Shown here one piece after another: positions 3,390-18,694 of a DNA stretch of 32,000 nt (its first letter is position 1; each line of letters opens with the position of its first letter). The stretch is taken from NCBI GenBank assembly GCA_024451685.1, contig JAMXCW010000002.1, forward strand, positions 75,042 to 107,041, in the 5' to 3' direction. The position numbers and the translations under genes are program-made. The notes under the pieces were generated by a model. It was not told the DNA's origin, did not search any database, and saw only the letters and a program-made list of their open reading frames with translations. This DNA comes from Candidatus Bathyanammoxibius amoris (GTDB lineage Bacteria; Planctomycetota; Brocadiia; Brocadiales; Bathyanammoxibiaceae).

Positions 3390-3662
3390 TTGAACGTAGA
3401 AGAGATTGAAAAGGAAGTGACGTCCATTGTTGCGGAAGTAACGGAGCTAGAGAGGGACGAGATTTGGAACAAGAGAGACGCCAATTTCTTTAAGGAACTA
3501 GAGATAGACTCCCTTTTAGCCCTGGAGATATTAGCGCTTATTGAAAAGAAGTTCAAGATTCAAATACCAGAAGAAAAGTTGGTAGATATAACATCTTTGA
3601 CCGCTACCATTAACATGACCAAAGATGTGCTGGCCGAGAGCGGAAGGCTGCAGGAAGCTTAG
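3390..3662 (+). CDS. acyl carrier protein, dedicated (amxACP-like)
   Basis: 90 aa. Phosphopantetheine attachment motif LEIDSLLALEI. TTG start with AAGGAGGGGA 4-13 nt upstream. An FF dipeptide (ANFFKELEIDSL) sits where E. coli AcpP has FV. Confidence 0.9.
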   Translation: MNVEEIEKEVTSIVAEVTELERDEIWNKRDANFFKELEIDSLLALEILALIEKKFKIQIPEEKLVDITSLTATINMTKDVLAESGRLQEA

Positions 3663-3697
3663 GCCCAAGAGGCTTGGCCAGAGGGGCCTACAAGACC

Positions 3698-4153
3698 ATG
3701 GATTTCGAGGAGGTAAAGAAGCTCGTCCCGCAAAGGTATCCCTTCCTATTCATAGATAAAGTTGTTGAATTAGAGGAGGGGAAGAGAATCGTCTGCCTCA
3801 AAAATGTTTCTGCGAACGAACCTTTCTTCGTCGGACACTTTCCGGAATACGCCATAATGCCCGGCGTCCTTACCTTGGAAGCCCTGGCCCAGGCATCCAT
3901 AATACTCTTCAAAAAAAGCTTCAAGCAGGACGACAGCCCGGACGCGGTCTTCCTGCTGGCCTCCGCAAAAGTAACCTTTGTAAAGCCTGTCTTCCCCGGG
4001 GATCAACTATACCTGGAGATAGACATAGAAAAGGTTATCTCTAATGCCGCCATTGTGAGTGGCATCGCAAGGGTCGGGGAAAACACAGTCGCCAAGACCA
4101 CTTTGACCTTCGCGACGGCCGATAAAACTTCACTTGGTAAAGGTCGGGAGTAG
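3698..4153 (+). CDS. fabZ: 3-hydroxyacyl-ACP dehydratase
   Basis: The hot-dog dehydratase signature [14 protein letters not shown]...[26 protein letters not shown] carries the catalytic His (GHFP) and Glu (LEALAQ). The track ORF begins at TTG 3674, but ATG 3698 gives the canonical N-terminus [16 protein letters not shown]. Confidence 0.9.
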
Positions 4154-4154
4154 C

Positions 4155-5378
4155 ATGAACACGCGTATAGTTATCACCGGTATAGGTGCGATAACTCCTA
4201 TCGGTTCAACCAAGGATGGCGCGTTTTGGGATGCGGTAGTTTCGGGCAAATCCGGTGTTAGCGATGTTACGTGCTTTGACACGTCCCAGCATAAGGTCCA
4301 CAAGGGCTGTGAGGTGAAGGACTTTGACTATCACGACTATACGGATAACGGCTCGGTCGGGAAAACAGGGAGGGGGTCTCAGCTTGCAGTGGCAGCCACC
4401 AAGCTGGCGCTTGAGGATTCAGGACTGAAACTGGACGAGGTAGACCCCGAGAGGATAGGTGTCTCTGTCGGGACGACCGGCGGTGAGATACAAATACTCG
4501 AAAGAATAGACCACCTCAGACACGAAAAGGAAGAGAGCCAGATAGACAGGCAGCTCTTTCTGCTGCACCCGTGCAATAATATACCCGCCAACATAGCCCG
4601 GGCATTCGGGTTTAAAGGCCCCAACACCATAATACCTACCGCATGCGCGGCGGGCAATTATGCAATCGGTTATGCCTGTGACCTCATAAAGATGGGGAGG
4701 GTGGATTTTATGTTTGCTGGCGGTTCCGACCCGTTTTCAAAGGTCGCTTTTACGGGTTTCAGCCGCCTGGCCGCGGTGGCACCGGACGTATGTCGTCCCT
4801 TCGACAAGAACCGCAAAGGGATGTTGATTGGAGAGGGCGCGGGTATGCTGCTGCTGGAGTCGCTCGACGGTGCGCGGGCAAGGGGGGCCGACATTTATGC
4901 GGAGATTATAGGCTACGGTCTGAGTTGCGATGGCTACCACATCACCATTCCCCATCCTGAGGGCCTCGGCGTAATCTCTTGCGTTAAAAAGGCCCTTCAA
5001 GACGCACGGATTAACCCTGAGGACGTGCAGTACATAAGCGCCCACGGCACGGGTACTGTCGCAAACGATAAAGCTGAAACCATTTCCATAAAAAAGGTCT
5101 TCGGTGAACATGCCGGGAACCTCATGGTGAGTTCTATAAAATCCATGATGGGTCACACTATGGGCGCCGCAAGTGCAATAGAGACGATTGCTTGTGCGCT
5201 GATAGTCAAAGAGGATAAAGTCCCGCCAACCATAAACTACGAGACGAAGGACCCTGAATGCGACCTGGACTATGTACCCAACGTTTCAAGAGAGCGCCGC
5301 GTAGACATCGCCCTTAATACCGCGTACGCCTTTGGTGGTAATAACAGTTGCCTGGTGGTCAAGAAGTTTCTTAATTAA
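4155..5378 (+). CDS. beta-ketoacyl-ACP synthase, FabF-like, catalytic triad intact
   Basis: The Cys-His-His triad is present: [48 protein letters not shown] 4155 lies 1 nt after the fabZ stop. The track start at 4134 (TTG) overlaps fabZ. Confidence 0.9.
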
Positions 5379-5459: not shown

Positions 5460-6689
5460 ATGGAAGAAAGAGTAGTAGTTACAGGTATAAGCATTATAAG
5501 CCCGCTCGGCGTGGGCAAGGACAGCTTCTGGGAAAACCTGCAGAACGGTGTCTCCGGCATAAGACCCGTAACCCTTTTTGAAGTGGACGGGTGCAGTTCC
5601 AAGAATGCCGGCGAAATACCGGACTTCGACCCCAGCAAGTTCCTGGGCAAGAAGGGTATCCGGCACTTTGACAGGACGTCGCTGCTGGTAACCGCAGCCT
5701 CAAGTCTCTGCGTCGAGGATGCCGCCGTCAAAGGCGTATATGAAGAGGACGACATGGGCATCGTCCTCGGTTCGACCTTTGGAAGTATCGACAGCATAAG
5801 CAATTTTGACATGGACTCTCTTAACGAGGGGCCTAATTACGTCAACCCGATGGCCTTCCCCAACACGGTCTTAAACGCTCCCGCCAGCCGTGCCTCAATA
5901 TTCTGTCAGGCCAAGGGGCTTAATTCCACCATATCCACGGGTGAATCCAGCGGCGTGGACGCTATTATGTGCGCATCCGACTTCCTCAGGCTCGGCAGGG
6001 TAAAGGCCGTGCTGACTGGCGGTGCGCACGGACTTACGCGGGAAATATTCCACTCTTCCAGCAAGGCCGGTGTGCTGTCGGGGAGCAAGAATACCGGCGG
6101 CAATGAGATTTGTGCTCCTTTCGATAAGAGACGCAACGGCATAGTTTTGGGCGAGGGTGTGGCCATGCTGCTGCTTGAATGTCTGGAGAATGCGCAGGCA
6201 AGAAATGCGAAGATATACGCCGAGATTAAGGGCTATGGCACCAGCTTTAACCCCGGCTGGGACAATAGCGGAGACATGGGCGGCGGTATGAGGGCCAATT
6301 CCCTGGCGCTCGCCAGCGCCGGACTCAAGCCGGAAGATATTTGCCTGATATACGCCAACGCCAATTCAAGCGTAAACGGTGACCGGATGGAGACCGTCGT
6401 TATAAAGGAATCCTTCGGCGACCTCGCAAAGAATATACCCGTAAGCGCGATAAAGTCCATGACCGGAGATTGCCTGGATGCATCAGGGGCGATGCAATGC
6501 GTGGCGTCCGTCATGTCAATCAACACGGGAATTATCCCTCCTACAATCAATTACAAAGAGTCAGACCCCGGCTGCGACCTGGACTACGTGCCAAACAAAA
6601 AGAGGCAGGCACAGATAGACAACGTGCTCGTGGAATCGTTCTCCTATACGGGCAACTGCTCTGCCCTGGTAATGTCCAAATACTCCTAG
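5460..6689 (+). CDS. KS-like protein lacking the whole catalytic triad (chain-length-factor-like partner)
   Basis: Full-length thiolase/KS fold (VVVTGISIISPLG...). Hand alignment to the upstream KS and to E. coli FabF motifs gives Cys->Glu (STISTGESSGVDAI), His->Asn (IYANANSSVNGD) and His->Asp (SAIKSMTGDCLDASGA). Confidence 0.85.
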   Translation: MEERVVVTGISIISPLGVGKDSFWENLQNGVSGIRPVTLFEVDGCSSKNAGEIPDFDPSKFLGKKGIRHFDRTSLLVTAASSLCVEDAAVKGVYEEDDMGIVLGSTFGSIDSISNFDMDSLNEGPNYVNPMAFPNTVLNAPASRASIFCQAKGLNSTISTGESSGVDAIMCASDFLRLGRVKAVLTGGAHGLTREIFHSSSKAGVLSGSKNTGGNEICAPFDKRRNGIVLGEGVAMLLLECLENAQARNAKIYAEIKGYGTSFNPGWDNSGDMGGGMRANSLALASAGLKPEDICLIYANANSSVNGDRMETVVIKESFGDLAKNIPVSAIKSMTGDCLDASGAMQCVASVMSINTGIIPPTINYKESDPGCDLDYVPNKKRQAQIDNVLVESFSYTGNCSALVMSKYS

Positions 6690-6691
6690 AA

Positions 6692-8122
6692 ATGGCGGAC
6701 AACGGCCTTTCTATAAAAAAGAGTGAACTCCGGAGTAAATACGACGTTATCGTAATCGGTGCGGGTATCGGGGGGCTCGTCGCGGGCGCCTTCCTCGCCA
6801 AAAGCGGAAAGAACACACTGGTAGTAGAACAGCACAACATCCCCGGCGGCTACTGCACGTCGTTTAAACGGGGCGGGTTCATCTTTGATTCCGCCGTTCA
6901 CCACATCGGGGGTTGCAGTAAGTACAGTATAGTGGGCAGGTGCCTGAAGGAATTAGGGATAGATATGGAATTCTACAGGCTCGACCCCATGGACACCCTC
7001 ACCTTCCCCTCGTTCTCCATAGACATACCGGCGGACATCGAGACCTACAAGTCCTCCCTGCAACAGAGATACCCGGCCGAGAAGGAAAACGTGTCCAGGT
7101 TCTTCAGTGAATTCATAAAACTCTACCGGGCGATAATAAACGAATCTGAGAAGAGCCCGACACTCGAAAAGTACAGGGGGCGTACTTATCAGGCCATGCT
7201 GGACGACTTCTTCGATGACACGGAGCTGAAGACCGCGCTGGCGGGGCAGTGGGGGTATCTTGGCACGCCCGCGCGCGAGCTTTCAAGCGTCGGCATGTGC
7301 CAGATGCTGGTAAACTATCTCAGAGACGGCGCCTTCTATCCCAAGGGCGGCACTCAAAACTTTGCAGACGCCTTCGCACGATGCATAAGAGACTCAGGCG
7401 GAGACCTGCTCCTGTCTTCAAAGGTGGAAGAGATACTACTCAAGGGCAACCGTGTGGCCGGGGTAAAGCTGGACGGGGGTGACAGGGAGATTGGGGCGGA
7501 GCATATCGTCTCAAATATTGACGCGGGACAGACGTTTTTTGAACTGATAAAGGAAGAGGTTGACCCCGTCTATCTTGAAAGAATGAGAGGGATGAGAGAA
7601 AGCCCTTCATATTTCCTCCTGTATCTCGGCCTTGACCCTGAGGTTGACCTGAGTAGATTCAAAAGAGGCTTTTATCACAGCCCTGACGACCAGTGGAAGT
7701 ATATATCGGCCCCGACAAACGTGGACAAATCCCTGGCCACAAAACTCCGGCAGGAGATAACCGTAGTAGCCACGCTGGATGAAAAGTACGACCAGATTGA
7801 GGACTGGAAGGGCTTGAAAGATAGGTTGACCAGGTGTACAATAAGTTACCTTGAAGATCTTGTGCCAAACCTTAACAGGCACATCGAGGTAGTGGAGGCG
7901 GCCACACCAAAGACCCTCTGGCGGTACACGCTCAACTCAAAGGGGGCCGCGTACGGGTGGGCCGTCACGCTTGAGCAGTCCGGACCGGACAGGCTTGGCA
8001 ATAAAACACCGGTAGGGGGTTTATATCTGGCCGGACATTGGACAAACCCGGGACCAGGCGTCTGCGCCGTTGTGTCCTCGGGTTGGCGCGTGGCAAACAT
8101 GATATTGAGAAACGGGAGATAA
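6692..8122 (+). CDS. FAD-dependent desaturase/oxidoreductase, phytoene desaturase (CrtI)/amine-oxidase family
   Basis: N-terminal dinucleotide fold YDVIVIGAGIGGLVAGAFLAKSGKNTLVVEQHNIPGGY. CrtI-like C-terminus GGLYLAGHWTNPGPGVCAVVSSG. ATG 6692 lies 2 nt after the preceding stop. The track start at 6470 overlaps the KS-like gene and is rejected. Confidence 0.8.
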   Translation: MADNGLSIKKSELRSKYDVIVIGAGIGGLVAGAFLAKSGKNTLVVEQHNIPGGYCTSFKRGGFIFDSAVHHIGGCSKYSIVGRCLKELGIDMEFYRLDPMDTLTFPSFSIDIPADIETYKSSLQQRYPAEKENVSRFFSEFIKLYRAIINESEKSPTLEKYRGRTYQAMLDDFFDDTELKTALAGQWGYLGTPARELSSVGMCQMLVNYLRDGAFYPKGGTQNFADAFARCIRDSGGDLLLSSKVEEILLKGNRVAGVKLDGGDREIGAEHIVSNIDAGQTFFELIKEEVDPVYLERMRGMRESPSYFLLYLGLDPEVDLSRFKRGFYHSPDDQWKYISAPTNVDKSLATKLRQEITVVATLDEKYDQIEDWKGLKDRLTRCTISYLEDLVPNLNRHIEVVEAATPKTLWRYTLNSKGAAYGWAVTLEQSGPDRLGNKTPVGGLYLAGHWTNPGPGVCAVVSSGWRVANMILRNGR

Positions 8123-8127
8123 AGGTT

Positions 8128-9573
8128 ATGAAGAAGATAATGCTGGTAAACCCTCATCCTCCAGGCCGTCACGGTGAGGAGAGCATAAGCGTGATAGTCC
8201 AGATGCCCCTGAATCTGGCCTACATCGCCGCCCTCACGCCGGGCGACGATTGGGAGTTCGATGTAGTTGACGAAAACCTCGAGCTTGCAATGGATGAGAA
8301 TGGAGAGGACATAACCTTTGACCCGCCGGATATAGTCGCGCTTACCGCGCTCACCTATCAGGCTCCCAGGGCATACCAGATAGCCCGGGCCGCCAAGAAA
8401 CACGGCTGTACCACAATAATGGGCGGCATCCACGCCTCCGTGTGTGCGGAAGAGACCCTGCAGTACGTGGACACGGTCGTAACCGGAGAGGCGGAGAACG
8501 TCTGGCCGCAGGTGATAAAGGACTTTGAGAACGGAAAGTTGCAGAGACGCTACGACGGCGGACTCCCCAACCTCTCAGTACTCAAAAATATATATCCCGA
8601 TAGAGAACTTCTGAAGAAAAAGTACGGCTACAAGTTCTCTTCTATAATAACTACTAAAGGCTGTCCCAACCGCTGCGATTTCTGCAGCGTGCCCACCTTC
8701 CAGGGCCAGAAGTTCCGGGAGAGACCGTACGAAGACGTGCTCGACGAGATGGCGGCTACGGACTATAAGGGGCTGATGTTTGCTGAGGACAACTTCTACG
8801 GCCACAGCGACGCCTCCGCGCGGCGCGCCAAACACCTCTTCCAGGGCATGATTGACAGGGGCCTGAAGAAGGACTGGCTCGGCTTTACCGCCCTCAACAT
8901 CTCTCATGACGCCGAGGCCCTCGACCTGATGGCAAAGTCCGGCAACTTCGGTTTTCTCGTCGGCATAGAAAGCACCAACGAAGAGGTGTTGAAGAAAATG
9001 GGTAAGCGGGTGAATTTGAGACTTGGGACCACTAATTATAAAGAATGTATAAGGAAGATACATGATGCGGGTCTCCTCGTCTGGGCCTCGGTGGTATTCG
9101 GCGCCGACGGCGATGGCAAGGATTCGTTCAAGAAGATGGTGGATTTCGTACACGACAGCAAGGTGGACATACTGACCTACGGCCTTGACTGCCCGTTCCC
9201 CAAGACGCCGCTCTTCTACAGGCTCGATTCAGAGAAACGGCTCTTCCGGAGAAATCTGCCGGAGGACTGGGTATATTACGAGACCGCCCATATGGTCCAC
9301 AGGTTCGTTGACATGACCCTGGACGATTTCGTGGACGGCATGCAGTACGTCTACGACCACGTATACGCGGGTGACAACGTCCGCAAGAGGTTCAGGACAA
9401 CCATACAGGAGACCGGCAACCCCCGCAACTCCATGTTCGCCCTCAGGGTGGGTCAGGACTGGGACCAAGTCTTTTTGCAGGTTTTGGACAACCTGCACGA
9501 ACTCCAGGAATCCGGCGATTATTATAAAGACACCTACACCACGCAGGAAAAGACCATCTCCATCCCCGCGTAG
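8128..9573 (+). CDS. B12-binding-domain radical SAM enzyme (paralog 1)
   Basis: Radical SAM cluster motif TTKGCPNRCDFCSVP (CxxxCxxC). N-terminal Rossmann-like B12-binding-type domain (IMLVNPHP...DIVALTALTYQAPRAYQIARAAKKHGCTTIMGGIHAS). ATG 8128 with GGGAGA 9 nt upstream, 5 nt after the desaturase stop. Confidence 0.85.
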   Translation: MKKIMLVNPHPPGRHGEESISVIVQMPLNLAYIAALTPGDDWEFDVVDENLELAMDENGEDITFDPPDIVALTALTYQAPRAYQIARAAKKHGCTTIMGGIHASVCAEETLQYVDTVVTGEAENVWPQVIKDFENGKLQRRYDGGLPNLSVLKNIYPDRELLKKKYGYKFSSIITTKGCPNRCDFCSVPTFQGQKFRERPYEDVLDEMAATDYKGLMFAEDNFYGHSDASARRAKHLFQGMIDRGLKKDWLGFTALNISHDAEALDLMAKSGNFGFLVGIESTNEEVLKKMGKRVNLRLGTTNYKECIRKIHDAGLLVWASVVFGADGDGKDSFKKMVDFVHDSKVDILTYGLDCPFPKTPLFYRLDSEKRLFRRNLPEDWVYYETAHMVHRFVDMTLDDFVDGMQYVYDHVYAGDNVRKRFRTTIQETGNPRNSMFALRVGQDWDQVFLQVLDNLHELQESGDYYKDTYTTQEKTISIPA

Positions 9574-9607
9574 TATCGCTGCATATTATCAGACCAACAA
9601 ATAATGT

Positions 9608-9639
9608 AGGGGCACGGCAATGCCGCGCCCCTTTGTTTT
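9608..9639 (+). terminator. rho-independent terminator of locus A
   Basis: AGGGGCACGGC-AAT-GCCGCGCCCCT forms a stem of 6+4 bp with one internal mismatch. It is followed by TTTGTTTT and lies 35 nt after the radical SAM stop. Confidence 0.7.
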
Positions 9640-9663
9640 ATCTATTCCTCAACAATTATGCGT

Positions 9664-10051
9664 ACGAGATTCTTCGCTGCCCCTTCGCTACGCTCAGGGC
9701 TTCGGCTCAGAATGACAACTCGTGGCGTGGTAGACAACGAGGTTTACCTCGTTGATCAACGACCATATCGAAGACTCGCCATGTTGTTGGGCGAGAAGGC
9801 CGTTGTTTACCAACTACGTTACATTACGCCTGAAAAATCTTTTTATGTAGCGTGGTAGCTCGCTGCCACGTTCTACGTTGGAGCAAGCTCCAACGCTACA
9901 TCGATTGTATATGGCCCCATAAATGGGGCAACTACAGTTGAAAGCCGCAGGGCTAAAGCCCTGCGGCACCCATAGATTAGGTAGGGGGCGGGGTGACCCC
10001 GACCCTACAGTGAATTATAACGTGGAGGGCAGCCATAAGGCCTGCCCCTAC
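9664..10051. repeat. array of short GC-rich hairpins, many flanked by GTAG/CTAC (REP/BIME-like)
   Basis: Stem-loops read directly: 9735-9754 (CAACGAGG/CCTCGTTG), 9851-9870 (CGTGG/CCACG), 9876-9895 (CGTTGGAGC/GCTCCAACG), 9914-9929 (GCCCCAT/ATGGGGC), 9944-9967 (GCCGCAGGGC/GCCCTGCGGC), 9981-10008 (GTAGGGGGCGGGG..CCCCGACCCTAC) and 10027-10048 (GGGCAG/CTGCCC). Confidence 0.6.
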
Positions 10052-10054
10052 AAA

Positions 10055-10768
10055 CTATTTGGGCAGGGGAGCGCCGCACCAGGCGCAGAATGTCCACGTG
10101 GCGGAGACCTCCTCCCCACACTTCGCACATGGAGGGGCATTCACCATCGCGTCGAACGGGGTGTGCCACGTGAAGACCGCCTTCTCGTACGGGCCGTCGG
10201 CATTAAGCACCAGGGTCAGCTTGGATTTCTTGTGTGTGTCAATTACAGGCTCGCCCTTTTTATCCTTGTTCGGGAATATCAGGACGTGCATGTTGGCGCC
10301 GCCGGCGTCGCCCTCCGAGGCCAGTATAGTCTTCATTGCCGCAACGGTCGCCGCAACCATGGGGGGCGGGTCGTCTACGGGCCGGATTTTAGAGCCGTCC
10401 GGCGCCAGCAGCACCGCTCTTTTCCGGACTTCGCTTTCACCCGCATACATAGAGGAGCCGTCGGGCTGCATGATGCTGCTCTGGATGACCATGGTGATGT
10501 ACGGCTTAAGGAACCCCATGTCCTGTTCTATGACGTCCCTTGGCTGACGGGTATCGGTAAGACTTGCCTCCACGTAGAAATCGAACGGCATCCACATGGC
10601 AAGCTGTGTAACGTCACCCAGTATCTCTACTTTCAGTATCTCGGTAACAAAGCTGCCGAGGTCGGCATTTGGCTTCGCGCCGGCTCCCTGCTGGGCAGCC
10701 AGGGTCTGGGGGAACGCGGCGACACAGAACAGAACCGCGGCCATAAAAAGAATCCTTGGGGTCTTCAC
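10055..10768 (-). CDS. exported hypothetical protein with C-terminal CxxC...CxxC zinc-ribbon-like tail
   Basis: 237 aa. Signal peptide MKTPRILFMAAVLFCVAAFPQTLAAQQ. GTG start with AAGGAGAG 5 nt upstream. C-terminus CAKCGEEVSATWTFCAWCG. No family recognised. Confidence 0.6.
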   Translation of the reverse strand: MKTPRILFMAAVLFCVAAFPQTLAAQQGAGAKPNADLGSFVTEILKVEILGDVTQLAMWMPFDFYVEASLTDTRQPRDVIEQDMGFLKPYITMVIQSSIMQPDGSSMYAGESEVRKRAVLLAPDGSKIRPVDDPPPMVAATVAAMKTILASEGDAGGANMHVLIFPNKDKKGEPVIDTHKKSKLTLVLNADGPYEKAVFTWHTPFDAMVNAPPCAKCGEEVSATWTFCAWCGAPLPK

Positions 10769-10829
10769 GGTGCTCTCCTTTCAAAAACGTATTACCTTCA
10801 TGTCTGCCAGCGCGGCCGGACGGTGAAGG

Positions 10830-11174
10830 TTATTCTCCCGTTGGGAATATCATCGTATCGAGGTCTTTTACCAGTTGATACATCCTGCGGGCGTCTTGCA
10901 GGGCCTGTTCCTGGTTTACAAGCGGTATTATCTCTATCTTTGTAAACAGGGGGAACAGCGGCAGCTTTGTCACAATCGCCTCTATCTCCGCGTGGTCGTC
11001 CGCGTCAAAGATGGCCGCCGCGCCGCGGCGCCCGGCCAGTTTGCCGCCTGCCAGGACTTTCCCCCTCTTCTTCATCCTCTCGTAGAACTCCCATTCCTTT
11101 ATCAAGAGTTGAAAGAAATCCCTGACCGGCATCTGGTTAATCTTTTCTATCTCTACCTTTACTAGAAATAGCAT
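10830..11174 (-). CDS. muconolactone delta-isomerase-fold (MIase family) protein
   Basis: 114 aa. MLFLVKVEIE...IFDADDHAEIEAIVTKLPLFPLFTKIEIIPL parallels CatC-type muconolactone isomerases as I remember them (MLFxVxM...N..YSIFDV.S.EELH.LL..LPLFPYM.IEV.PL). GAGGTG RBS 7 nt upstream. Confidence 0.6.
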   Translation of the reverse strand: MLFLVKVEIEKINQMPVRDFFQLLIKEWEFYERMKKRGKVLAGGKLAGRRGAAAIFDADDHAEIEAIVTKLPLFPLFTKIEIIPLVNQEQALQDARRMYQLVKDLDTMIFPTGE

Positions 11175-11300: not shown

Positions 11301-12044
11301 TTACATGGCCATGCCGCCGTCTACGGTAATTACTTGACCCGTGATATAACTGGCCTCGTCCGAGGCCAGGAAAGCCACCACGCGGGCCACCTCTTCGGTC
11401 TCGCCGACGCGGCCCAGAGGCACCAGCTTCAACATCTCGTCCAGGTATTTCTGCTCTATCGCTTTAACCATATCCGTCTTAATGAAACCCGGCGCCACCG
11501 CGTTTACCCGCACCCCGCGCCTTGCCACCTCCTTGGCCAGGGCCTTGGTAAAACCAACTATCCCGGCCTTTGAGGAGGAATAGTTGGTCTGTCCCGCCAT
11601 GCCGACAAGCCCGCTGACGGAGCTTATGTTTATTATCGAGCCGCTCCGCTGCTTCATCATGGGCAACACGGCGGCCTTGGTGCAGTTGAACACGCCGTTC
11701 AGGTTGGTATCTATCACGGCCCTCCAGTCCTCTTCCGACATCATCATCAATATCTTGTCCCTGGTTATACCGGCGTTGTTTACCAGGATGTCTACCTTTC
11801 CGAGTTCCTTTATGGCATTGCTAATCATCTCTTTTGACCGGGCAAAGTCCGCGACGTCGCTCTGCACGGAAAACGCCTTTACGCCCAGCTTGCTTATCTC
11901 GCCCTCAAGCTCCTTCGCCTTCTCCACGTTCTTCGCGTAGCTGAAGGCCACGTCCGCGCCGTTTCCGGCAAGCTCAAGGGCTATCGCCCTCCCGATACCC
12001 CTGGTACCACCCGTGACAATAGCCGTCTTCCCTTTTAATGACAT
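11301..12044 (-). CDS. fabG: 3-oxoacyl-ACP reductase
   Basis: 247 aa classical SDR. TGGTRGIGRAIA, NNAGI, the Ser...YSSSK catalytic motif and the C-terminal ITGQVITVDGGMAM typical of FabG. Confidence 0.9.
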   Translation of the reverse strand: MSLKGKTAIVTGGTRGIGRAIALELAGNGADVAFSYAKNVEKAKELEGEISKLGVKAFSVQSDVADFARSKEMISNAIKELGKVDILVNNAGITRDKILMMMSEEDWRAVIDTNLNGVFNCTKAAVLPMMKQRSGSIINISSVSGLVGMAGQTNYSSSKAGIVGFTKALAKEVARRGVRVNAVAPGFIKTDMVKAIEQKYLDEMLKLVPLGRVGETEEVARVVAFLASDEASYITGQVITVDGGMAM

Positions 12045-12121: not shown

Positions 12122-12128
12122 TGGCAAA

Positions 12129-14135
12129 TTATACAGTAAGTCCTATCTTAAAGCCTTCATGGATCGCCTCCATCGCGGTCCTTACCTGCACGCAGTCGCC
12201 GATAGTATATATCTCAGGCACGAGACCGTTAAGGTGTTTATGGAGCGAGTCGTCGGATATGTACCCGGTAGCAATTATCACCGTTTCCGCGGGTATAAAA
12301 GTCTCCCGGCCGTCCTTTTCATACAACACGCCGCTCTCTGGCTCCTCTTTGACTTCCTTTACCTTTACGGTCGTGACGGCCTTTATGCCTGCGCCCTCCA
12401 TCTCCCTTTCCATCACCCAGCGTGTGGATATCCCGAAACCGCCGGCGACTCTCCTCTTCATCTCGAGAATGGTGACGTTCCTGTGGCCCCTTGAGGATTT
12501 TTCCAATGCGGTCGGCAGGTCTATTATATCATTCTTTAGCAAGAACATCGCCACATCCGGTTTCATACTGCCCAGCTTGGCCACGTAGAGGGCCGTCTCA
12601 CTGCCTACCGTCCCGCCGCCTATTATAACAACCTCACGGCCAACCGGCACCCTCCCGTCCAGTACGTCCTTCGCCAGCACGATGTTATTCCCGTTTATCC
12701 CCGGAATCGGCGGGATGGACGGCGTTGAACCAGTTGACAGTATCAGCACGTTCGGTTTTTCCTTCTTGATTATATCCGGGTTTGCCTCAACGCCCAGGAC
12801 GACCTTCACCTTTTCCTTCTTTATCTGTCTTTCCAGATATTTTATAACGTTTACAAACTCCTCGCGGCCAGGGGGCTTGTAGGCATAGTGCAACTGACCC
12901 CCAAGGATTTTTTCTTTCTCATACAGTGTTACGTCATGGCCTCTCAGCGCGGCCACCCGGGCCGCCTCCATTCCTCCGGGACCGCCCCCTACAACAAGGA
13001 TCTTCCTCTTCTTTGCCGCCGGTGTTATGGTATATTCTTTTTCCCTCCCTGCCCTGGGATTGTACAGGCAGGTGACGGCCCTCATGTTCAAGAGTTCATC
13101 AAAGCAGCCCTGGTTGCATGCTATACACGTCCTTATGTCCTCAAGCCTGCCTTCCTTATATTTATTGGGCAGCTCTGGGTCCGCTATGAGCGGTCTGCCG
13201 ATGGATACCAGGTCTGTCTGCCCGTCCCTGAGCAGCTCTTCCGCAACGGTAAGGTCATTTATCCTGACAGCCGCTATTACGGGTATGTCCACGTTTTCTT
13301 TGATGGAGGTTGCCAGAACCACGTAAGCGGTTCTGGGGATTACCATCAGCATTACGGGTACCTTGCTTTCGTGCCACCCCGGCGACACGTGGAAGGCGTC
13401 CACGCCGAGTCCGGCAAGTCTCTGGGCGATTTGTATATTGTCCTTAATCTTCAGACCGCCCTCCATCAGCTCATCCCCGGAGAGTCTAAAGATTACGGGA
13501 AAATCCTCCCCAGCGGTCTCTTTGACGGCCTCTATGGTTTCAACGGCAAAGCGCAGCCTTTTCTCCGGGCTGCCGCCGTACTCGTCGTTTCTTTTATTGC
13601 TTATTGGTGAGAGGAACTGGTTGATGAGGTATCCCATGCCGCCGTGAATCTCTACGGCATCGAAGCCCGCGTCTTTGGCCCTTTTTGCGGCCAGGGCGTA
13701 GTTTTGTATTACCTGTTTTATCTCCGGGATGCTTAAGGCCCTGGACGTGTCTCTGGCCAGTCGTGAGGGCACGCTCGATGCCGATACGGGCTGCATCTTT
13801 GAGAACAGGCTTGAGGCATAACGCCCGCCATGGAGTATCTGGGCAGCGGCCTTTGTGCCGTGACGGTGCATAGCCCCGGTGAATCTGGCGAGTGAGGGGA
13901 TGTAGCGGTCGTCGTCCAGCCCGAGGATGCTCTTCCACGCCTTGCCGTTCTGTTCCGGATAGCACCCGCCGACAACGATGAGCCCCACACCTCCGTCGGC
14001 CCTCTCCGTATAGAAATCAACAAAACGGTCATTGACAAAGCCGCCGGTAGTGAAGCCAAGGTCCATTGCCGTCATCACGAGACGGTTTTCCAGCTGCAAC
14101 GGGCCTATATTTATTGTGTTAAACAGGCTGACCAT
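12129..14135 (-). CDS. FadH-type 2,4-dienoyl-thioester reductase-like flavoprotein (OYE FMN barrel + 4Fe-4S + FAD/NAD(P)H domains)
   Basis: 668 aa. N-terminal OYE-like barrel (GFDAVEIHGGMGYLINQFLSP). Cys motif CIACNQGCFDELLNMRAVTC (Cx2Cx3Cx11C, as in E. coli FadH). C-terminal Rossmann folds ILVVGGGPGGMEAA and VVIIGGGTVGSETA. Confidence 0.85.
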   Translation of the reverse strand: MVSLFNTINIGPLQLENRLVMTAMDLGFTTGGFVNDRFVDFYTERADGGVGLIVVGGCYPEQNGKAWKSILGLDDDRYIPSLARFTGAMHRHGTKAAAQILHGGRYASSLFSKMQPVSASSVPSRLARDTSRALSIPEIKQVIQNYALAAKRAKDAGFDAVEIHGGMGYLINQFLSPISNKRNDEYGGSPEKRLRFAVETIEAVKETAGEDFPVIFRLSGDELMEGGLKIKDNIQIAQRLAGLGVDAFHVSPGWHESKVPVMLMVIPRTAYVVLATSIKENVDIPVIAAVRINDLTVAEELLRDGQTDLVSIGRPLIADPELPNKYKEGRLEDIRTCIACNQGCFDELLNMRAVTCLYNPRAGREKEYTITPAAKKRKILVVGGGPGGMEAARVAALRGHDVTLYEKEKILGGQLHYAYKPPGREEFVNVIKYLERQIKKEKVKVVLGVEANPDIIKKEKPNVLILSTGSTPSIPPIPGINGNNIVLAKDVLDGRVPVGREVVIIGGGTVGSETALYVAKLGSMKPDVAMFLLKNDIIDLPTALEKSSRGHRNVTILEMKRRVAGGFGISTRWVMEREMEGAGIKAVTTVKVKEVKEEPESGVLYEKDGRETFIPAETVIIATGYISDDSLHKHLNGLVPEIYTIGDCVQVRTAMEAIHEGFKIGLTV

Positions 14136-14215: not shown

Positions 14216-15457
14216 TTACATATCACTTTTTTCCACTACGAGGCTGGTGCAGTTTCCATTCAGGTCGAGAGAGTTGACTATTGCCACCTTTATGTCCTGT
14301 TTAAGCTCGTCCCCCAGTACGAAATTCAGCTCGCACTCAGGGTCCGGCACCTTGTAGTTCCTCATCGGAGGGATGGTCGATTTTTCCATGGCCAGCAGGC
14401 AAAAGGCCATTTGCATCGCCCCTGATGCGCCGTAACACTCACCGGTCTGAGACTTTATAGAACTTACCGGTACGTCTCTCAAGCCGTCTCCCAGCAGCGC
14501 TTTAACGGCCCTGGCCTCTATGAGGTCCGTCTGCTTTGAAGAATTACCGTTTGCGCAGATAAGCCCCAAGGAATCCTTTGATTGTCCGGCCTGTTCAAGA
14601 GCCTGCTCCATGGTATTTTTCACTCTCTCTGTCTTTTCTTCCAGGCTGAACCTCCTGGCTCCCATGTAAGCTAGTCCGTGACCGGTGAGCTCCGCATATA
14701 CGCGGGCTCCCCGCCTGCGTGCATATTCCATGTCCTCTATGACAAACACGTAACTGCCCTCACCGAGGATGAAGCCGTTCCTGCGCTTATCAAACGGGGC
14801 GCTTATCTCTGGTTCAGAGTCCTGCGAACCAGCCAGAAGTTTTTGCATAAGAAAGATGATGTAACTGTCGAGCGAGATTTGTTCCACCCCGCCGGCAATG
14901 AGCACATCCACCCTGTTTGTCTGTATCAAGCTAAAGGCGTCGCCGATAGCGTCGGCGCTGGACGTGAATCCTGAGGTAATTGTCCTTGAAGGACCGGTGA
15001 GTTTAAAAAATACTGAAGCAAAGTTTGTAGAGGAATTCAGTGCCACGTCATAGCTGTCCATGGGAAGGAGCTTTTCAGGCCCGCGTTTAAGGATCTCATA
15101 CGTATAATCCGTTGTCTGTGGGTAATTGCCGAGGGCTGAACCTATTACAACGCCCGTGTCATCAGGACAGTGATTGCCGTTCTGGAAGAGTTTAGCGTCT
15201 TCGAGGGCAAGTTTCGTTGCAGACGCAAGAAATTTGGTACCCTTTGTCAGATATTTAAGGCCCTTGTCACCGAGATATTCAGAGGGATTCAGGCCCTTTA
15301 CTTCCGCAGCCAGTTTACAAGGATACCCGGAGACGTCAAGGGACGTGATCGGGGCGATACCGGAATGGCCTCCGGCAAGATTCTTCCAGAATTCCTCATG
15401 CCCAAACCCCAGCGGAGAGATTATACCGATGCCAGTTATTACGGTCCTTTTCTTCAT
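14216..15457 (-). CDS. KS-like protein lacking the whole catalytic triad (second chain-length-factor-like partner)
   Basis: 413 aa KS fold. Cys->Phe (RTITSGFTSSADAIG), His->Asn (ICANGNSSKQTD), His->Glu (SSIKSQTGECYGASGA). Its ATG overlaps the upstream KS stop (ATGA at 15454-15457). Confidence 0.85.
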   Translation of the reverse strand: MKKRTVITGIGIISPLGFGHEEFWKNLAGGHSGIAPITSLDVSGYPCKLAAEVKGLNPSEYLGDKGLKYLTKGTKFLASATKLALEDAKLFQNGNHCPDDTGVVIGSALGNYPQTTDYTYEILKRGPEKLLPMDSYDVALNSSTNFASVFFKLTGPSRTITSGFTSSADAIGDAFSLIQTNRVDVLIAGGVEQISLDSYIIFLMQKLLAGSQDSEPEISAPFDKRRNGFILGEGSYVFVIEDMEYARRRGARVYAELTGHGLAYMGARRFSLEEKTERVKNTMEQALEQAGQSKDSLGLICANGNSSKQTDLIEARAVKALLGDGLRDVPVSSIKSQTGECYGASGAMQMAFCLLAMEKSTIPPMRNYKVPDPECELNFVLGDELKQDIKVAIVNSLDLNGNCTSLVVEKSDM

Positions 15458-16659
15458 ACCCTACCAAAAACAACGCTGGCATTATTACCGCCAAAGGCAA
15501 ACGAGTTATTCAAGGCGAATCTAACCTCTTTGTTTCTTGCCTCATTAGGCACGCAATCCAGGTCGCATTCCGGGTCCTTTGTCTCGTAGTTTATCGTCGG
15601 GGGGAGTTCTCCAAACTTTATGGCCAGGCAGCACACGGCAGACTCAATGGCGCTTGCCGCTCCCATGGTGTGGCCGATCATTGACTTTACCGAGCTGCAT
15701 GGAATCTGCGGGGTTCTCTCTTTAAAGACCGTCTTGACTGCAAGGGTTTCCATTTTGTCATTCAGCGGCGTGCCTGTGCCGTGCGCGCTTATATAATCTA
15801 CGTCCTCATACGAAAGCTTGGCGCATCCCAGTGCCGCCTCCATTGCCCTGATAGCGCCTTCCCCTTTAGGATGGGGAGCGGTCATGTGAAAACCGTCGCT
15901 GCTGAGACCGTAGCCCTTTACTTCAGCATATGTGTTCGCGCCGCGTTTTGTTGCATGCTCCAGAGTCTCAAGTATCAGCATCCCCGCGCCGGCCCCCACG
16001 ACCAGACCCTGTCTGTTTTTATCAAACGGCTGGCATTTCTCCGGCGCCAGGGCCTTCAGGTTGTGGAAGTGCGTAAATTCAGTTTGCGGTACTATGTCGC
16101 TTCCGCCGACTACCATTGCGTTAACCTTTCCTTCCTGCAGCATGTCAAAGGCCCAGCACAGGGCATGGTTTCCGGAGGAGCAGGCGTTAATCAGAATGAT
16201 ATTGGGACCTTCTACGTGAAAATCTTCTGCCAGCTGAGTCGATAAGGTCGCCGGGGGATAACGCAGGACCACGTCCAGACTAAACCCGGAGGCCTTGTCA
16301 CGGGGGTTGTCCCTTAGCTTATGCTCAAAGGCGGAGAGTTCTCCGGCAAGCGTTCCTATGGACATACCGACTTTATCTATTTCCAGGCCCTTGTAGTCAA
16401 ATATGCCGCTATCTTGAAGCGCCTCCCTGGTAGCTACGTAAAGACAATCGTAAACAGTATATCCGTTCTTGGATGGTGGGGTACCGTTGGAGTTCAGACT
16501 TTTTAACTCACAGGCACGGTGAACCTTGTATCTGGAGGTGTCAAAGGTGGTAATTTCCGAGACACCATCCCGGCCATTAAGCATTGCTTCCCAGGATTTT
16601 TTTCTGTCCGAACCAATGGCCGTTACCAAGCCGAGGCCTGTCACAACTACTCTGGGCAT
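15454..16659 (-). CDS. beta-ketoacyl-ACP synthase, FabF-like, catalytic triad intact (second copy)
   Basis: 401 aa. IILINACSSGNHAL (Cys), [15 protein letters not shown] (His), [16 protein letters not shown] (His). Starts 16 nt after the radical SAM stop. Confidence 0.9.
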   Translation of the reverse strand: MPRVVVTGLGLVTAIGSDRKKSWEAMLNGRDGVSEITTFDTSRYKVHRACELKSLNSNGTPPSKNGYTVYDCLYVATREALQDSGIFDYKGLEIDKVGMSIGTLAGELSAFEHKLRDNPRDKASGFSLDVVLRYPPATLSTQLAEDFHVEGPNIILINACSSGNHALCWAFDMLQEGKVNAMVVGGSDIVPQTEFTHFHNLKALAPEKCQPFDKNRQGLVVGAGAGMLILETLEHATKRGANTYAEVKGYGLSSDGFHMTAPHPKGEGAIRAMEAALGCAKLSYEDVDYISAHGTGTPLNDKMETLAVKTVFKERTPQIPCSSVKSMIGHTMGAASAIESAVCCLAIKFGELPPTINYETKDPECDLDCVPNEARNKEVRFALNNSFAFGGNNASVVFGRV

Positions 16660-18249: not shown

Positions 18250-18615
18250 TCAATACGCGCCAGTCACCAATAATACCTGCCCTATGGCGTGGTCTTTTGT
18301 GTGGGTTATTGATACGTCCCATGAGCCGACACCCTTTTCCTCGGCGAGTTCCTTCGCCCTCCCATAAAGTTTAAGGTAAGGACGTCCCGAGGAATCATTG
18401 AGCAACTCAATATCTGTCCACTTCATCCCCGTACCCAGGGCCTTTACCACCGCCTCTTTTACGGCAAACCTGGCGGCCAGGTGTTCAAACTTATTCCTCT
18501 TAGAGAGGCTGTACTCTACCTCCCTGGGGGTGTATATGCGGTCAATAAAGGATTCGTAACGGGTAAAAAGGTCTTTAATTCTTCCAACTTCCACCAGGTC
18601 GATGCCTATGTACAC
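18250..18615 (-). CDS. acpS: holo-ACP synthase (4'-phosphopantetheinyl transferase)
   Basis: 121 aa. IGIDLVEVGRI, RFAVKEAVVKALG and WDVSITHTKDHA are typical AcpS blocks. GTG start with GGGGAG 8 nt upstream. Confidence 0.9.
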   Translation of the reverse strand: MYIGIDLVEVGRIKDLFTRYESFIDRIYTPREVEYSLSKRNKFEHLAARFAVKEAVVKALGTGMKWTDIELLNDSSGRPYLKLYGRAKELAEEKGVGSWDVSITHTKDHAIGQVLLVTGAY

Positions 18616-18665: not shown

Positions 18666-18694
18666 ATTCTATCTATTGTAGTAACAGTTGTCAA
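18666..18694 (-). promoter_or_regulatory. putative sigma70 promoter for locus B (acpS operon)
   Basis: On the minus strand: TTGACA (18694-18689), a 17-nt spacer, then TAGAAT (18671-18666). About 50 nt upstream of the acpS start. Confidence 0.5.

What the first reader, a model, noticed from the sequence alone, without database searches (positions are those of the whole stretch)
8128..9573. Two paralogous B12-domain radical SAM enzymes, one ending locus A and one (16676-18157) heading locus B
Both proteins have an N-terminal B12-binding-type Rossmann domain and a CxxxCxxC cluster (CPNRCDFC and CPFSCEFC). They also share long colinear blocks: NPHP, YQAPRAYQIA, YPDRE(L/F)LKKKY, RERP(Y/V)EDVLDEM and NLPEDWVYY/NFPEDWVYY.

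Class B (cobalamin) radical SAM enzymes perform methylations and unusual C-C bond formations on unactivated carbons.

Embedding them in ACP/KS operons with 5-16 nt spacing argues that their substrate is an acyl-ACP or lipid tail. Having two diverged copies suggests two different radical steps, for example two cyclisation modes giving [3]- versus [5]-ladderane-type tails, or methylation plus cyclisation. This last part is speculation.
Basis: partly seen in the sequence, partly recalled or inferred. Interest (0 to 1): 0.75.

Follow-up and report, generated by a model that had tools for sequence, protein, structure and literature searches.

The report
Known candidate ladderane radical SAM pair
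The two genes are real, related B12-type radical SAM enzymes, but they are the counterparts in a deep-branching anammox bacterium of two long-known and still uncharacterised candidate genes for making ladderane membrane lipids, so this is a rediscovery rather than a new system.

Summary
ORFs 8128-9573 (+, 481 aa) and 16676-18157 (-, 493 aa) are 48% identical paralogues (E 2e-175). Both have an N-terminal B12-binding-type Rossmann domain, an invariant CX3CX2C radical SAM core and a helical C-terminal domain.

The window comes from the anammox bacterium Candidatus Bathyanammoxibius amoris. The two proteins are orthologues of Kuenenia stuttgartiensis Kuste3608 and Kuste2803. Locus A reproduces "Cluster I" (amxACP-FabZ-KS-inactive KS-phytoene desaturase-like-rSAM). 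Locus B reproduces Kuste2802-2805 (AcpS-rSAM-KS-inactive KS), extended here by an OYE-type reductase and FabG.

These genes have been proposed as ladderane enzymes since 2009, and Kuste2803 is called "ladderane synthase" in the B12-rSAM literature. No activity has been shown. The finding is therefore already known.

Three points add a little:
- The two clusters lie next to each other in this lineage.
- MAGs not labelled as anammox bacteria (GC 50-70%) carry both modules fused in one operon, and the A/B duplication predates Brocadiales. This weakens the [3]- versus [5]-ladderane idea and the old argument that Kuste2803 is anammox-specific.
- The genome has a third paralogue elsewhere.

Most likely role: radical C-H activation and C-C bond formation on ACP-bound acyl intermediates. 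This is inferred, not shown.

The parts
3390..3662 (+). Acyl carrier protein (amxACP orthologue, Kuste3603-type), first gene of locus A
   Evidence: Pfam PP-binding 48.6 bits. It is 73-93% identical to the ACP at the head of the same cassette in all Brocadiales loci.
3674..4153 (+). FabZ-type 3-hydroxyacyl-ACP dehydratase (amxFabZ orthologue)
   Evidence: Pfam FabA 89.6 bits. NCBIfam fabZ scores 149.7 bits, just under the cut-off of 155. Syntenic in all loci.
4134..5378 (+). Active ketosynthase KS_A (amxFabF2, Kuste3605-type)
   Evidence: ketoacyl-synt N and C domains. The Cys/His/His triad is intact: TACAAG, AHGTGT, GHTMGA.
5460..6689 (+). Inactive ketosynthase homologue KSmut_A (amxFabFmut / chain-length-factor-like, Kuste3606-type)
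   Evidence: KS fold, but the triad is replaced by Glu/Asn/Asp. The Brocadia orthologues form a KS/CLF-like heterodimer (preprint read).
6692..8122 (+). Phytoene-desaturase-like flavoprotein (PDH, Kuste3607-type). The start ATG is at 6692, 2 nt after the KSmut_A stop
   Evidence: Amino_oxidase 80.8 bits. crtI_fam scores 158.9 bits, below the cut-off of 238. Start checked.
8128..9573 (+). rSAM-A: B12-domain radical SAM protein, orthologue of Kuste3608, last gene of locus A
   Evidence: It is 71-72% identical to the Kuenenia copy P0015. The Brocadiales A clade has 100% bootstrap support. AF2 model: pLDDT 88.8.
9608..9632 (.). G+C-rich 11-bp-stem hairpin with T-rich sequence on both sides, 35 nt after the rSAM-A stop. 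Likely terminator at the junction of the convergent loci
   Evidence: Terminator scan and the sequence itself.
10055..10768 (-). Small protein with a hydrophobic N-terminal stretch that looks like a signal peptide and a C-terminal zinc ribbon, lying between the two loci. Membership in the system is uncertain
   Evidence: Zn_Ribbon_1 25 bits. Only a weak counterpart (37%) in L003. The signal-peptide reading is by eye from the translation, not a prediction tool.
10830..11174 (-). Muconolactone-isomerase-like small protein (ferredoxin-like alpha+beta barrel), last gene on the locus-B strand
   Evidence: Pfam MIase 52.5 bits. Conserved close to family rSAM genes in L003 (90%), L058 (65%) and L070 (53%).
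11301..12044 (-). FabG-type 3-oxoacyl-ACP reductase
   Evidence: adh_short_C2 243 bits. A FabG lies downstream of the B-type KS pair in the fused non-anammox operons L068, L069, L076 and L080, within about 0.8 kb or less.
12129..14135 (-). OYE / 2,4-dienoyl-CoA-reductase-like FMN+FAD flavoenzyme, a candidate enoyl or dienoyl reductase of the pathway
   Evidence: Oxidored_FMN 256 bits plus Pyr_redox_2 114 bits. Present downstream of the B module in the window and in L003, but absent from the Kuenenia-type B locus.
14216..15457 (-). Inactive ketosynthase homologue KSmut_B (Kuste2805-type)
   Evidence: Triad replaced by Phe/Asn/Glu. This is the same signature that Rattray et al. list for Kuste2805.
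15454..16659 (-). Active ketosynthase KS_B (Kuste2804-type). It overlaps KSmut_B by 4 nt
   Evidence: KS domains. Cys/His/His intact.
16676..18157 (-). rSAM-B: B12-domain radical SAM protein, orthologue of Kuste2803
   Evidence: The 90% cluster of P0172 (68% identity) contains CAJ73554.1 from K. stuttgartiensis. The Brocadiales B clade has 96% bootstrap support. The same AcpS-rSAM-KS-KS order is seen in L081.
18250..18615 (-). Holo-ACP synthase AcpS (Kuste2802-type), first gene of locus B
   Evidence: NCBIfam pantethn_trn 94.7 bits and acpS 84.3 bits, both above cut-off.
18666..18694 (-). Sigma-70-like promoter match (11 of 12) upstream of AcpS
   Evidence: This is a consensus match only.

Best explanation
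The two genes encode the Candidatus Bathyanammoxibius amoris orthologues of K. stuttgartiensis Kuste3608 (rSAM-A) and Kuste2803 (rSAM-B). Both are three-domain, class-B-type radical SAM enzymes belonging to the two FASII-like gene clusters long proposed to make ladderane lipids.

Each enzyme is closely linked on the same strand to its own pair of an active ketosynthase and a catalytically dead, chain-length-factor-like ketosynthase.

Proposed mechanism:
- The [4Fe-4S] cluster on CX3CX2C cleaves SAM to a 5'-deoxyadenosyl radical.
- The radical abstracts hydrogen from an unactivated carbon of an acyl chain held on the dedicated ACP.
- The substrate radical is steered towards carbon-carbon bond formation (ring closure or coupling), probably with help from cobalamin bound in the N-terminal Rossmann domain.
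- This happens while the KS/CLF pairs, FabG, FabZ and a reductase extend the chain.

Shown here: domain architecture, orthology, conserved synteny, the KS active-site states, and the presence of cobalamin-contact motifs.

Inferred: the ACP-bound substrate, cobalamin use, the type of reaction, and the link to ladderanes.
For: Identity and orthology:
- Identical or near-identical database entries are named Ca. Bathyanammoxibius amoris. Copy A is MCQ4573970.1 and copy B is MCQ4573977.1, on one 230,592-bp contig.
- Kuenenia relatives: 71% identity for A (P0015). For B, P0172 is 68% identical, and its cluster holds CAJ73554.1.
- Tree of 62 sequences: Brocadiales A clade 100% bootstrap, Brocadiales B clade 96%.

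Synteny:
- ACP-FabZ-KS-KSmut-PDH-rSAM is found in every Brocadiales locus that reached far enough upstream of the rSAM-A gene to show the neighbours.
- AcpS-rSAM-KS-KS is found in the Kuenenia-type locus L081.
- KSmut_B carries the Phe/Asn/Glu signature published for Kuste2805.

Architecture:
- Pfam B12-binding + Radical_SAM + weak DUF4070.
- AF2 model with pLDDT 88.8. Best folds are AprD4, TsrM, MgmA, TokK, CysS and OxsB.
- C179/C183/C186 and G99-G100 are invariant in all 61 family members. The downstream motif [G/A/C]-x-T-x-[V/L/M] and a (G/R/K)-E motif match the cobalamin contacts described for OxsB, TsrM and TokK.

Literature:
- Cluster I and Kuste2802-2805 are the standard ladderane candidates.
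- The KS pair of Cluster I forms a KS/CLF-like heterodimer.
- Kuste2803 is listed as a proposed cyclobutane-forming enzyme and as 'ladderane synthase'.
Against: - No enzyme of either cluster has been tied experimentally to ladderanes. Heterologous expression gave no ladderanes, and the radical SAM proteins were mostly insoluble or not obtained.
- The same two-rSAM cassette occurs in MAGs not labelled as anammox bacteria, with GC 50-70%. Ladderane-like clusters are reported in many non-anammox phyla, and D. psychrophila has a syntenic cluster but no ladderanes. The cassette alone is therefore probably not sufficient for, or specific to, ladderane formation.
- The best structural match is AprD4, which as far as I recall has a B12-like domain but no cobalamin (for the match; the cofactor statement is my own knowledge).
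- Copy B scores just under the Pfam B12-binding cut-off. The whole B clade has Arg/Lys in place of Gly in the 'GE' cobalamin-tail motif.
- There is no cobalamin riboswitch in the window.
Confidence: 0.55

Rival explanations
1. They are cobalamin-dependent C-methyltransferases that methylate unactivated carbons of ACP-bound acyl chains. The result would be either mid-chain methyl-branched fatty acids or methyl groups that are later turned into small rings.
For: - Most characterised class B radical SAM enzymes are methylases. TsrM, TokK, CysS and MgmA are among the best structural matches. The best NCBIfam partial match is the PhpK P-methyltransferase family.
- The cobalamin motifs are present.
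- The cassette occurs outside anammox bacteria, where ladderanes are unknown.
- Installing methyl groups as a route to cyclopropyl intermediates is one published proposal.
- From my own knowledge, not tested here: anammox bacteria and several anaerobes contain 10-methylhexadecanoic acid, whose anaerobic origin is unclear.
Against: - Scores against every methylase family are far below their cut-offs.
- In the published similarity network Kuste2803 groups with the non-methylating enzymes HpnJ and BchE.
- Tight pairing with dedicated KS/CLF pairs and a desaturase-like enzyme is more elaborate than a single methyl branch would need.
Confidence: 0.2
2. They are cobalamin-independent, AprD4-like radical enzymes (dehydratase, desaturase or isomerase) acting on hydroxy- or enoyl-ACP intermediates. 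The pathway would make polyunsaturated or otherwise unusual chains and would be shared with non-anammox bacteria. The ladderane-specific step would lie elsewhere.
For: - AprD4 is the best match by sequence profile (E 2.8e-15) and by fold (TM 0.67-0.73).
- Fused cassettes occur in MAGs not labelled as anammox bacteria.
- Rattray et al. proposed an anaerobic polyunsaturated-lipid pathway shared with D. psychrophila, which makes C31:8/9 hydrocarbons but no ladderanes.
Against: - The GG and downstream cobalamin motifs are invariant or nearly so across the family. That is unexpected if the cofactor site were vestigial.
- Identity to AprD4 is only 17-18%.
- No polyunsaturated fatty acids have been found in anammox bacteria or in E. 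coli expressing the cluster.
Confidence: 0.15
3. They are tetrapyrrole-modifying enzymes, as some database names say (bacteriochlorophyllide d C-12(1)- or C-8(2)-methyltransferase, BchE-like).
For: The Kuenenia orthologues carry these names in public databases. There are partial matches to the BchE model at about 80 bits.
Against: - BchE scores 83/80 bits against a cut-off of 481.
- The conserved neighbours are ACP, AcpS, KS, FabZ and FabG, not pigment genes.
- From my own knowledge: anammox bacteria are not phototrophs.
Confidence: 0.02

Closest known systems
Kuenenia stuttgartiensis Kuste3608 (radical SAM gene of 'Cluster I', KustE3603-3608)
   Same: Orthologue of rSAM-A: 71-72% identity, the same clade (100% bootstrap), and the same six-gene cassette in the same order.
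   Different: In this genome the cassette lies 1.7 kb from the second cluster, in convergent orientation. In the Brocadia, Kuenenia and Scalindua loci examined, no B module lies within 10 kb.
Kuenenia stuttgartiensis Kuste2803 (CAJ73554.1), called the proposed 'ladderane synthase'
   Same: Orthologue of rSAM-B: 67-68% identity, the Brocadiales B clade (96% bootstrap), and the same AcpS-rSAM-KS-inactive KS order with the Phe/Asn/Glu signature in the dead KS.
   Different: Here the operon continues with an OYE-type reductase, FabG and a muconolactone-isomerase-like gene, none of which is in the Kuenenia-type locus. Contrary to the 2009 view that Kuste2803 has almost no relatives elsewhere, B-type copies about 53% identical exist in non-anammox MAGs.
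BchE, HpnJ and OxsB (cobalamin-dependent radical SAM enzymes that do ring chemistry instead of methylation)
   Same: The same overall architecture. According to the literature they lie in the same region of the class B similarity network as Kuste2803. They are the mechanistic precedent for cobalamin-assisted C-C bond formation or rearrangement.
   Different: Scores are far below the family cut-offs: BchE 83/80 against 481, HpnJ 73/75 against 578. The OxsB fold match has only 13-15% identity. The gene contexts differ.
AprD4 (PDB 6fd2), radical SAM 1,2-diol dehydratase
   Same: Best solved-structure match by sequence profile and by fold.
   Different: Identity is 17-18%. The substrate is an aminoglycoside. 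As far as I recall it does not use cobalamin, whereas this family keeps the GG and downstream cobalamin motifs.
NCBIfam TIGR04072 rSAM_ladder_B12 ('lipid biosynthesis B12-binding/radical SAM protein')
   Same: The name and general architecture. It is the second-best (copy B) or fourth-best (copy A) partial match.
   Different: It is a different family. Window copies score 75 and 83 bits, and even the Kuenenia proteins score only 77-87 bits, against a cut-off of 360.
Type II polyketide KS/CLF systems with an iterative radical SAM tailoring enzyme (ishigamide Iga11/12; jawsamycin Jaw5)
   Same: An active KS paired with a dead KS, next to a radical SAM enzyme that may act during chain growth.
   Different: According to the review, Jaw5 acts through a SAM-derived methylene radical to build cyclopropanes; I recall it as HemN-like, without a B12 domain. 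Here there are two KS/CLF pairs, each with its own B12-domain enzyme.

Membership tests
Class B (cobalamin-dependent) radical SAM enzymes | N-terminal Rossmann-type B12-binding domain | tested here: met
   Pfam PF02310 scores 49.9 bits for copy A (cut-off 32.1) and 31.4 bits for copy B, marginally below. The AF2 model shows a five-strand Rossmann domain, and the fold matches TsrM, TokK, CysS and OxsB.
Class B (cobalamin-dependent) radical SAM enzymes | CX3CX2C motif for the SAM-cleaving [4Fe-4S] cluster | tested here: met
   C179, C183 and C186 (copy A numbering) are invariant in all 61 family members and in the outgroup.
Class B (cobalamin-dependent) radical SAM enzymes | Base-off cobalamin contact motifs: G-x-S/T-x-X after beta3, Gly-Gly on beta4, Gly-Glu at alpha5 | tested here: met
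   [G/A/C]71-x-T73-x-[V/L/M]75 is present. G99-G100 is invariant. G120-E121 is present in the A clade, but the whole B clade has [R/K]120-E121 (motifs as defined in the review read). Copy B therefore meets two and a half of the three motifs.
Class B (cobalamin-dependent) radical SAM enzymes | Cobalamin is actually bound and needed for activity | not testable with these tools
   The best structural match is AprD4, which as far as I recall lacks cobalamin. No riboswitch was found in the window.
Kuste3608-type radical SAM of ladderane 'Cluster I' | Orthology to Kuste3608, and position as last gene of amxACP-FabZ-KS-KSmut-PDH-rSAM | tested here: met
   71% identity to the Kuenenia copy P0015. Brocadiales A clade at 100% bootstrap. 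The cassette is conserved in every Brocadiales locus with enough upstream sequence.
Kuste2803-type radical SAM ('ladderane synthase' candidate) | Orthology to CAJ73554.1, and position in AcpS-rSAM-KS-KSmut with the Phe/Asn/Glu dead KS | tested here: met
   The equation CAJ73554 = Kuste2803 rests on consecutive numbering from Kuste2805 = CAJ73556.
Ladderane-forming enzyme (functional class) | Catalyses cyclobutane ring formation, and the host makes ladderanes | not testable with these tools
   No biochemical evidence exists for any orthologue. No lipid data for Bathyanammoxibius were found in the papers searched.
TIGR04072 rSAM_ladder_B12 | Score at or above the curated cut-off of 360 bits | tested here: not met
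   74.7 and 83.3 bits. The Kuenenia orthologues score 77 and 87 bits.
BchE / HpnJ / HpnR / PhpK / TsrM-type / MCR glutamine methylase equivalogs | Score at or above each family's curated cut-off | tested here: not met
   All matches score 45-100 bits against cut-offs of 251-775.

The most novel reading that the evidence does not exclude
The two radical SAM/KS-CLF modules are halves of one ancient, horizontally mobile operon. That operon still exists in fused form in MAGs labelled as delta-proteobacteria, Spirochaetales and other non-anammox Planctomycetota, with the same parts nearby in Blastocatellia. If the cassette really builds the cyclobutane ladder, then ladderane-like strained-ring lipids are made outside anammox bacteria and have been overlooked.
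Probability: 0.1. Interest if true: 0.85.

Novelty: already known. Interest (0 to 1): 0.35.

Why it matters
How ladderanes are made is a twenty-year-old open problem. No enzyme forming linearly fused cyclobutanes is known, and these two proteins are the main suspects. The finding does not add a new suspect.

The Bathyanammoxibius arrangement is still practically useful. Within 15 kb it gathers:
- a dedicated ACP and its activating AcpS;
- two KS/CLF pairs;
- a ketoreductase, a dehydratase and a candidate enoyl reductase;
- a desaturase-like enzyme and a small isomerase-like protein;
- both radical SAM enzymes.

This is a compact, nearly self-contained parts list for reconstitution, from a lineage whose proteins have not yet been tried.

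The fused versions in unrelated, high-GC bacteria offer further orthologues that may be easier to express. They also provide a direct test of whether the cassette is specific to ladderanes.

Tried and rejected
- NCBIfam equivalogs for every characterised class B family were tested. None reaches its cut-off, including the tempting 'rSAM_ladder_B12' model. That model is a different family.
- The tetrapyrrole annotation of the Kuenenia orthologues was rejected on scores and gene context.
- Rfam scan of the window for a cobalamin riboswitch or any other RNA: nothing found.
- Exact look-up of the third paralogue P0084 to get its annotated context: not on record. I read its context from loci L078 and L072 instead. 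It sits after menaquinone (futalosine-route) genes and next to an MlaEFD transporter, not next to fatty-acid genes.
- A Biopython bootstrap run timed out. I replaced it with my own neighbour-joining and bootstrap script. The tree is distance-based, not maximum likelihood.
- I checked whether the non-anammox loci could be mis-binned Brocadiales DNA. Their GC is 57-70% (49.8% for the Blastocatellia contig) against 37-55% in Brocadiales loci. Most lie on contigs of 0.38-1.8 Mb, and the Blastocatellia and Spirochaetales ones on contigs of about 60 kb. Contamination is therefore unlikely, though the taxonomic labels are the depositors' own.
- The membrane-spanning-lipid synthase literature was checked for a link and none was found.
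- I did not use the 1.84-billion-protein profile search or the last word-indexed search. They return no names or context that would change the verdict.
Full report
**1. What is in the sequence**

The window carries two convergent operon-like gene strings.

Locus A, + strand:
- ACP, 3390-3662
- FabZ-type dehydratase, 3674-4153
- ketosynthase KS_A, 4134-5378
- second KS homologue, 5460-6689
- phytoene-desaturase-like flavoprotein, 6692-8122
- rSAM-A, 8128-9573

Locus B, - strand:
- AcpS, 18250-18615
- rSAM-B, 16676-18157
- KS_B, 15454-16659
- second KS homologue, 14216-15457
- OYE/2,4-dienoyl-reductase-like flavoenzyme, 12129-14135
- FabG, 11301-12044
- muconolactone-isomerase-like small protein, 10830-11174
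- zinc-ribbon protein, 10055-10768

A strong hairpin at 9608-9632 sits between the two strings. The flanking genes are housekeeping genes: hemL, a MATE exporter, arginine biosynthesis genes, RNase PH and LepA.

**2.

- The two radical SAM proteins are 48% identical over 466 residues (E 2e-175).
- Both have Radical_SAM and B12-binding Pfam matches. Copy B's B12 match is 31.4 bits against a cut-off of 32.1.
- The 5-nt and 16-nt gene spacings were confirmed.
- Correction: AcpS, not rSAM-B, heads locus B.
- Correction: the genome has a third family member on another contig.

**3. Where the window comes from and what the genes are**

Database entries 99-100% identical to the two proteins are named Candidatus Bathyanammoxibius amoris. 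They are MCQ4573970.1 and MCQ4573977.1, seven accession numbers apart on a 230,592-bp contig. This matches the seven-gene distance in the window.

- rSAM-A is 71-72% identical to the Kuenenia and Brocadia proteins that end the amxACP cassette.
- rSAM-B is 68% identical to a 90% cluster that includes K. stuttgartiensis CAJ73554.1.
- Rattray et al. give Kuste2805 = CAJ73556, so CAJ73554 is Kuste2803 by consecutive numbering.
- In a 62-sequence neighbour-joining tree (475 columns, 300 bootstraps), the Brocadiales A-type proteins form a clade with 100% support and the Brocadiales B-type proteins a clade with 96% support.

Synteny agrees with this:
- All Brocadiales loci recovered from the species-representative genome collection that reached far enough upstream of the rSAM-A gene show ACP-FabZ-KS-KSmut-PDH-rSAM.
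- The Kuenenia-type B locus is AcpS-rSAM-KS-KS.

The second KS of each pair has lost the Cys/His/His triad. In locus A it is Glu/Asn/Asp. In locus B it is Phe/Asn/Glu, the published Kuste2805 signature.

These are therefore the two gene clusters KustE3603-3608 ("Cluster I") and Kuste2802-2805. They were proposed as ladderane biosynthesis genes in 2009 and have been studied since.

**4. State of knowledge**

- The ACP and FabZ of Cluster I have been characterised.
- The two KS homologues form a KS/chain-length-factor-like heterodimer.
- The desaturase-like protein is not a CrtI.
- The radical SAM enzymes have resisted expression and have no demonstrated activity.
- Reviews of cobalamin-dependent radical SAM enzymes already list Kuste2803 as the proposed cyclobutane-forming enzyme. 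A 2026 paper calls it "ladderane synthase" and groups it with the non-methylating members BchE, HpnJ, OxsB and PbsB.
- A 2026 review still says the enzymes that install the rings are unknown. It lists three models: polycyclisation of a polyene, ligation of separately made parts, and stepwise ring formation during elongation.

**5. Family membership**

- Neither window protein, nor the Kuenenia orthologues, reaches the cut-off of any curated NCBIfam model. This includes TIGR04072 "rSAM_ladder_B12" (75-87 bits against 360), which must describe a different family.
- There is no close solved structure. The best sequence and fold matches are AprD4, TsrM, MgmA, TokK, CysS and OxsB, at 13-18% identity.
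- The AF2 model is confident (pLDDT 88.8, pTM 0.88). It shows a Rossmann domain, a partial TIM-barrel radical SAM core and a helical C-terminal domain.
- Compared with the cobalamin-contact motifs defined from OxsB, TsrM and TokK, the family keeps an invariant Gly-Gly, a [G/A/C]-x-T-x-[V/L/M] motif after beta3, and an invariant Glu at the start of alpha5.
- The Gly before that Glu is kept in the A clade but is Arg or Lys in the entire B clade.
- Cobalamin binding is therefore plausible but unproven. The top structural hit, AprD4, as far as I recall lacks cobalamin.

**6. What the comparison adds**

(a) *Adjacency.* In the window, and in a related MAG (L003), loci A and B are adjacent and convergent. 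In the Brocadia, Kuenenia and Scalindua loci examined, no B module lies within 10 kb of locus A.

(b) *Extended locus B.* In this lineage locus B also carries an OYE-type reductase, FabG and a muconolactone-isomerase-like gene. The Kuenenia-type locus has none of them. Together the two loci encode almost a full dedicated elongation cycle.

(c) *Fused versions outside anammox bacteria.*
- MAGs labelled as delta-proteobacteria (L068, L069), a Planctomycetota MAG (L076) and a Spirochaetales MAG (L080) carry both modules on one strand in one string: ACP-FabZ-KS-KSmut-PDH-rSAM-rSAM(-rSAM)-KS-KSmut-FabG.
- A Blastocatellia MAG (L064 and L067, one contig) has the two modules on the same strand, with about 11 kb between the end of the A cassette and the start of the B-type KS pair.
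- Another Planctomycetota MAG (L070) and an Acidobacteriota MAG (L074) show the A cassette followed directly by FabG.
- These loci have GC 50-70%. Most lie on contigs of 0.38-1.8 Mb; the Blastocatellia and Spirochaetales ones are on contigs of about 60 kb.
- In the tree the B-like copies of the delta-proteobacterial and Blastocatellia MAGs join the Brocadiales B clade (84% support). The A-like copies of these MAGs sit around the Brocadiales A clade.

The A/B duplication therefore predates the anammox lineage, and the adjacent arrangement in Bathyanammoxibius looks like a remnant of an ancestral single cluster.

This weakens the 2009 argument that Kuste2803 is special because it has almost no relatives elsewhere. 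It also makes it unlikely that the two copies arose to make [3]- versus [5]-ladderanes.

Ladderane-like clusters in non-anammox phyla are already known in a general way, from the D. psychrophila synteny and from antiSMASH surveys. This point is incremental.

**7. Mechanism**

- I consider it about 97% certain that these are the Kuste3608 and Kuste2803 orthologues.
- I put about 55% on the fuller statement: they act as radical C-H-activating, C-C-bond-forming enzymes on ACP-bound intermediates supplied by their neighbouring KS/CLF pairs in specialised (ladderane) lipid synthesis.
- Rivals: cobalamin-dependent methylation of acyl chains (0.2), an AprD4-like cobalamin-free dehydratase or desaturase role in a shared unusual-lipid pathway (0.15), and the tetrapyrrole annotation (0.02).

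**8. Verdict**

The novelty rating is "already known". Interest is moderate, because the underlying question is important but this finding does not by itself make it more testable. What it does offer is a compact gene set and some new orthologues for reconstitution.

Noticed in passing
window 10830-11174 (-): A 114-aa muconolactone-isomerase-like protein (Pfam MIase 52.5 bits) ends the locus-B strand. Homologues lie close to family radical SAM genes in L003 (90%), L058 (Anammoxibacter, 65%) and L070 (a non-anammox Planctomycetota MAG, 53%). Small alpha+beta-barrel proteins of this kind act as cyclases or isomerases in polyketide pathways (my own knowledge). It is not mentioned in the ladderane-cluster papers I read and could be an overlooked pathway component.
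   Followed up: partly
not in the window; P0084 (MCQ4574301.1), loci L072, L073, L075, L077, L078, L079: There is a third paralogue of the family, 54-57% identical to rSAM-A. Among the sequences sampled it forms its own clade (100% bootstrap), drawn from MAGs labelled Brocadiales, Brocadiia or Planctomycetota that also carry A-type copies close to the window's. It is not next to fatty-acid genes. It follows menaquinone (MqnA, MqnC-like) and APS-kinase genes and is convergent with an MlaD-MlaF-MlaE lipid transporter.
   Followed up: partly
window 22504-25062 (+): An MlaE / ABC ATPase / MlaD lipid-transport operon lies about 4 kb from locus B. A second MlaEFD set lies beside the third paralogue in L078 and L072. 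Rattray et al. noted a VacJ/MlaA-like gene in a Kuenenia cluster. Repeated proximity of Mla-type transporters to this enzyme family may be meaningful or may be chance.
   Followed up: no
L068 and L069 (about 5300-20100), L076, L080, L064+L067: MAGs not labelled as anammox bacteria carry large fused versions of the cluster. In L068/L069 there are up to three KS/dead-KS pairs and four B12-domain radical SAM genes on one strand. GC is 49.8% (Blastocatellia), 57% (L076) and 69% (L068, L069, L080).
   Followed up: partly
L064 (Blastocatellia MAG, contig DASRDY010000236.1): This cassette is unusually close to the Brocadiales one (ACP 77%, KS 68%, rSAM 63%, against 45-58% in the other non-anammox loci), and its GC is 49.8%. 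This suggests fairly recent horizontal transfer between lineages, or a wrong taxonomic label.
   Followed up: no
rSAM-A residue 120 (codon at window 8485-8487) and its rSAM-B counterpart Arg121: The 'Gly-Glu' cobalamin-tail motif is G-E in the A clade, the third paralogue and most other members, but R/K-E in the entire B clade, both anammox and non-anammox. It is one of 28 positions that are fixed but different between the A and B clades.
   Followed up: partly
window 12129-14135 (-) and 14166-14186: The OYE/2,4-dienoyl-reductase-like flavoenzyme and FabG are attached to the B module only in this lineage. A terminator-like hairpin lies between the dead KS and the reductase gene, so the two parts may be transcribed at different levels.
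   Followed up: no
window 18740-18767 (+) and 18694-18666 (-): A perfect 12/12 sigma-70 consensus promoter match faces the MATE exporter gene. An 11/12 match faces AcpS and locus B. They lie back to back in the 163-bp divergent intergenic region.
   Followed up: no
window 10055-10768 (-): A 237-aa protein with a hydrophobic N-terminal stretch that looks like a signal peptide (by eye) and a C-terminal zinc ribbon lies between the two loci. It is poorly conserved (37% in L003) and its function is unknown.
   Followed up: no
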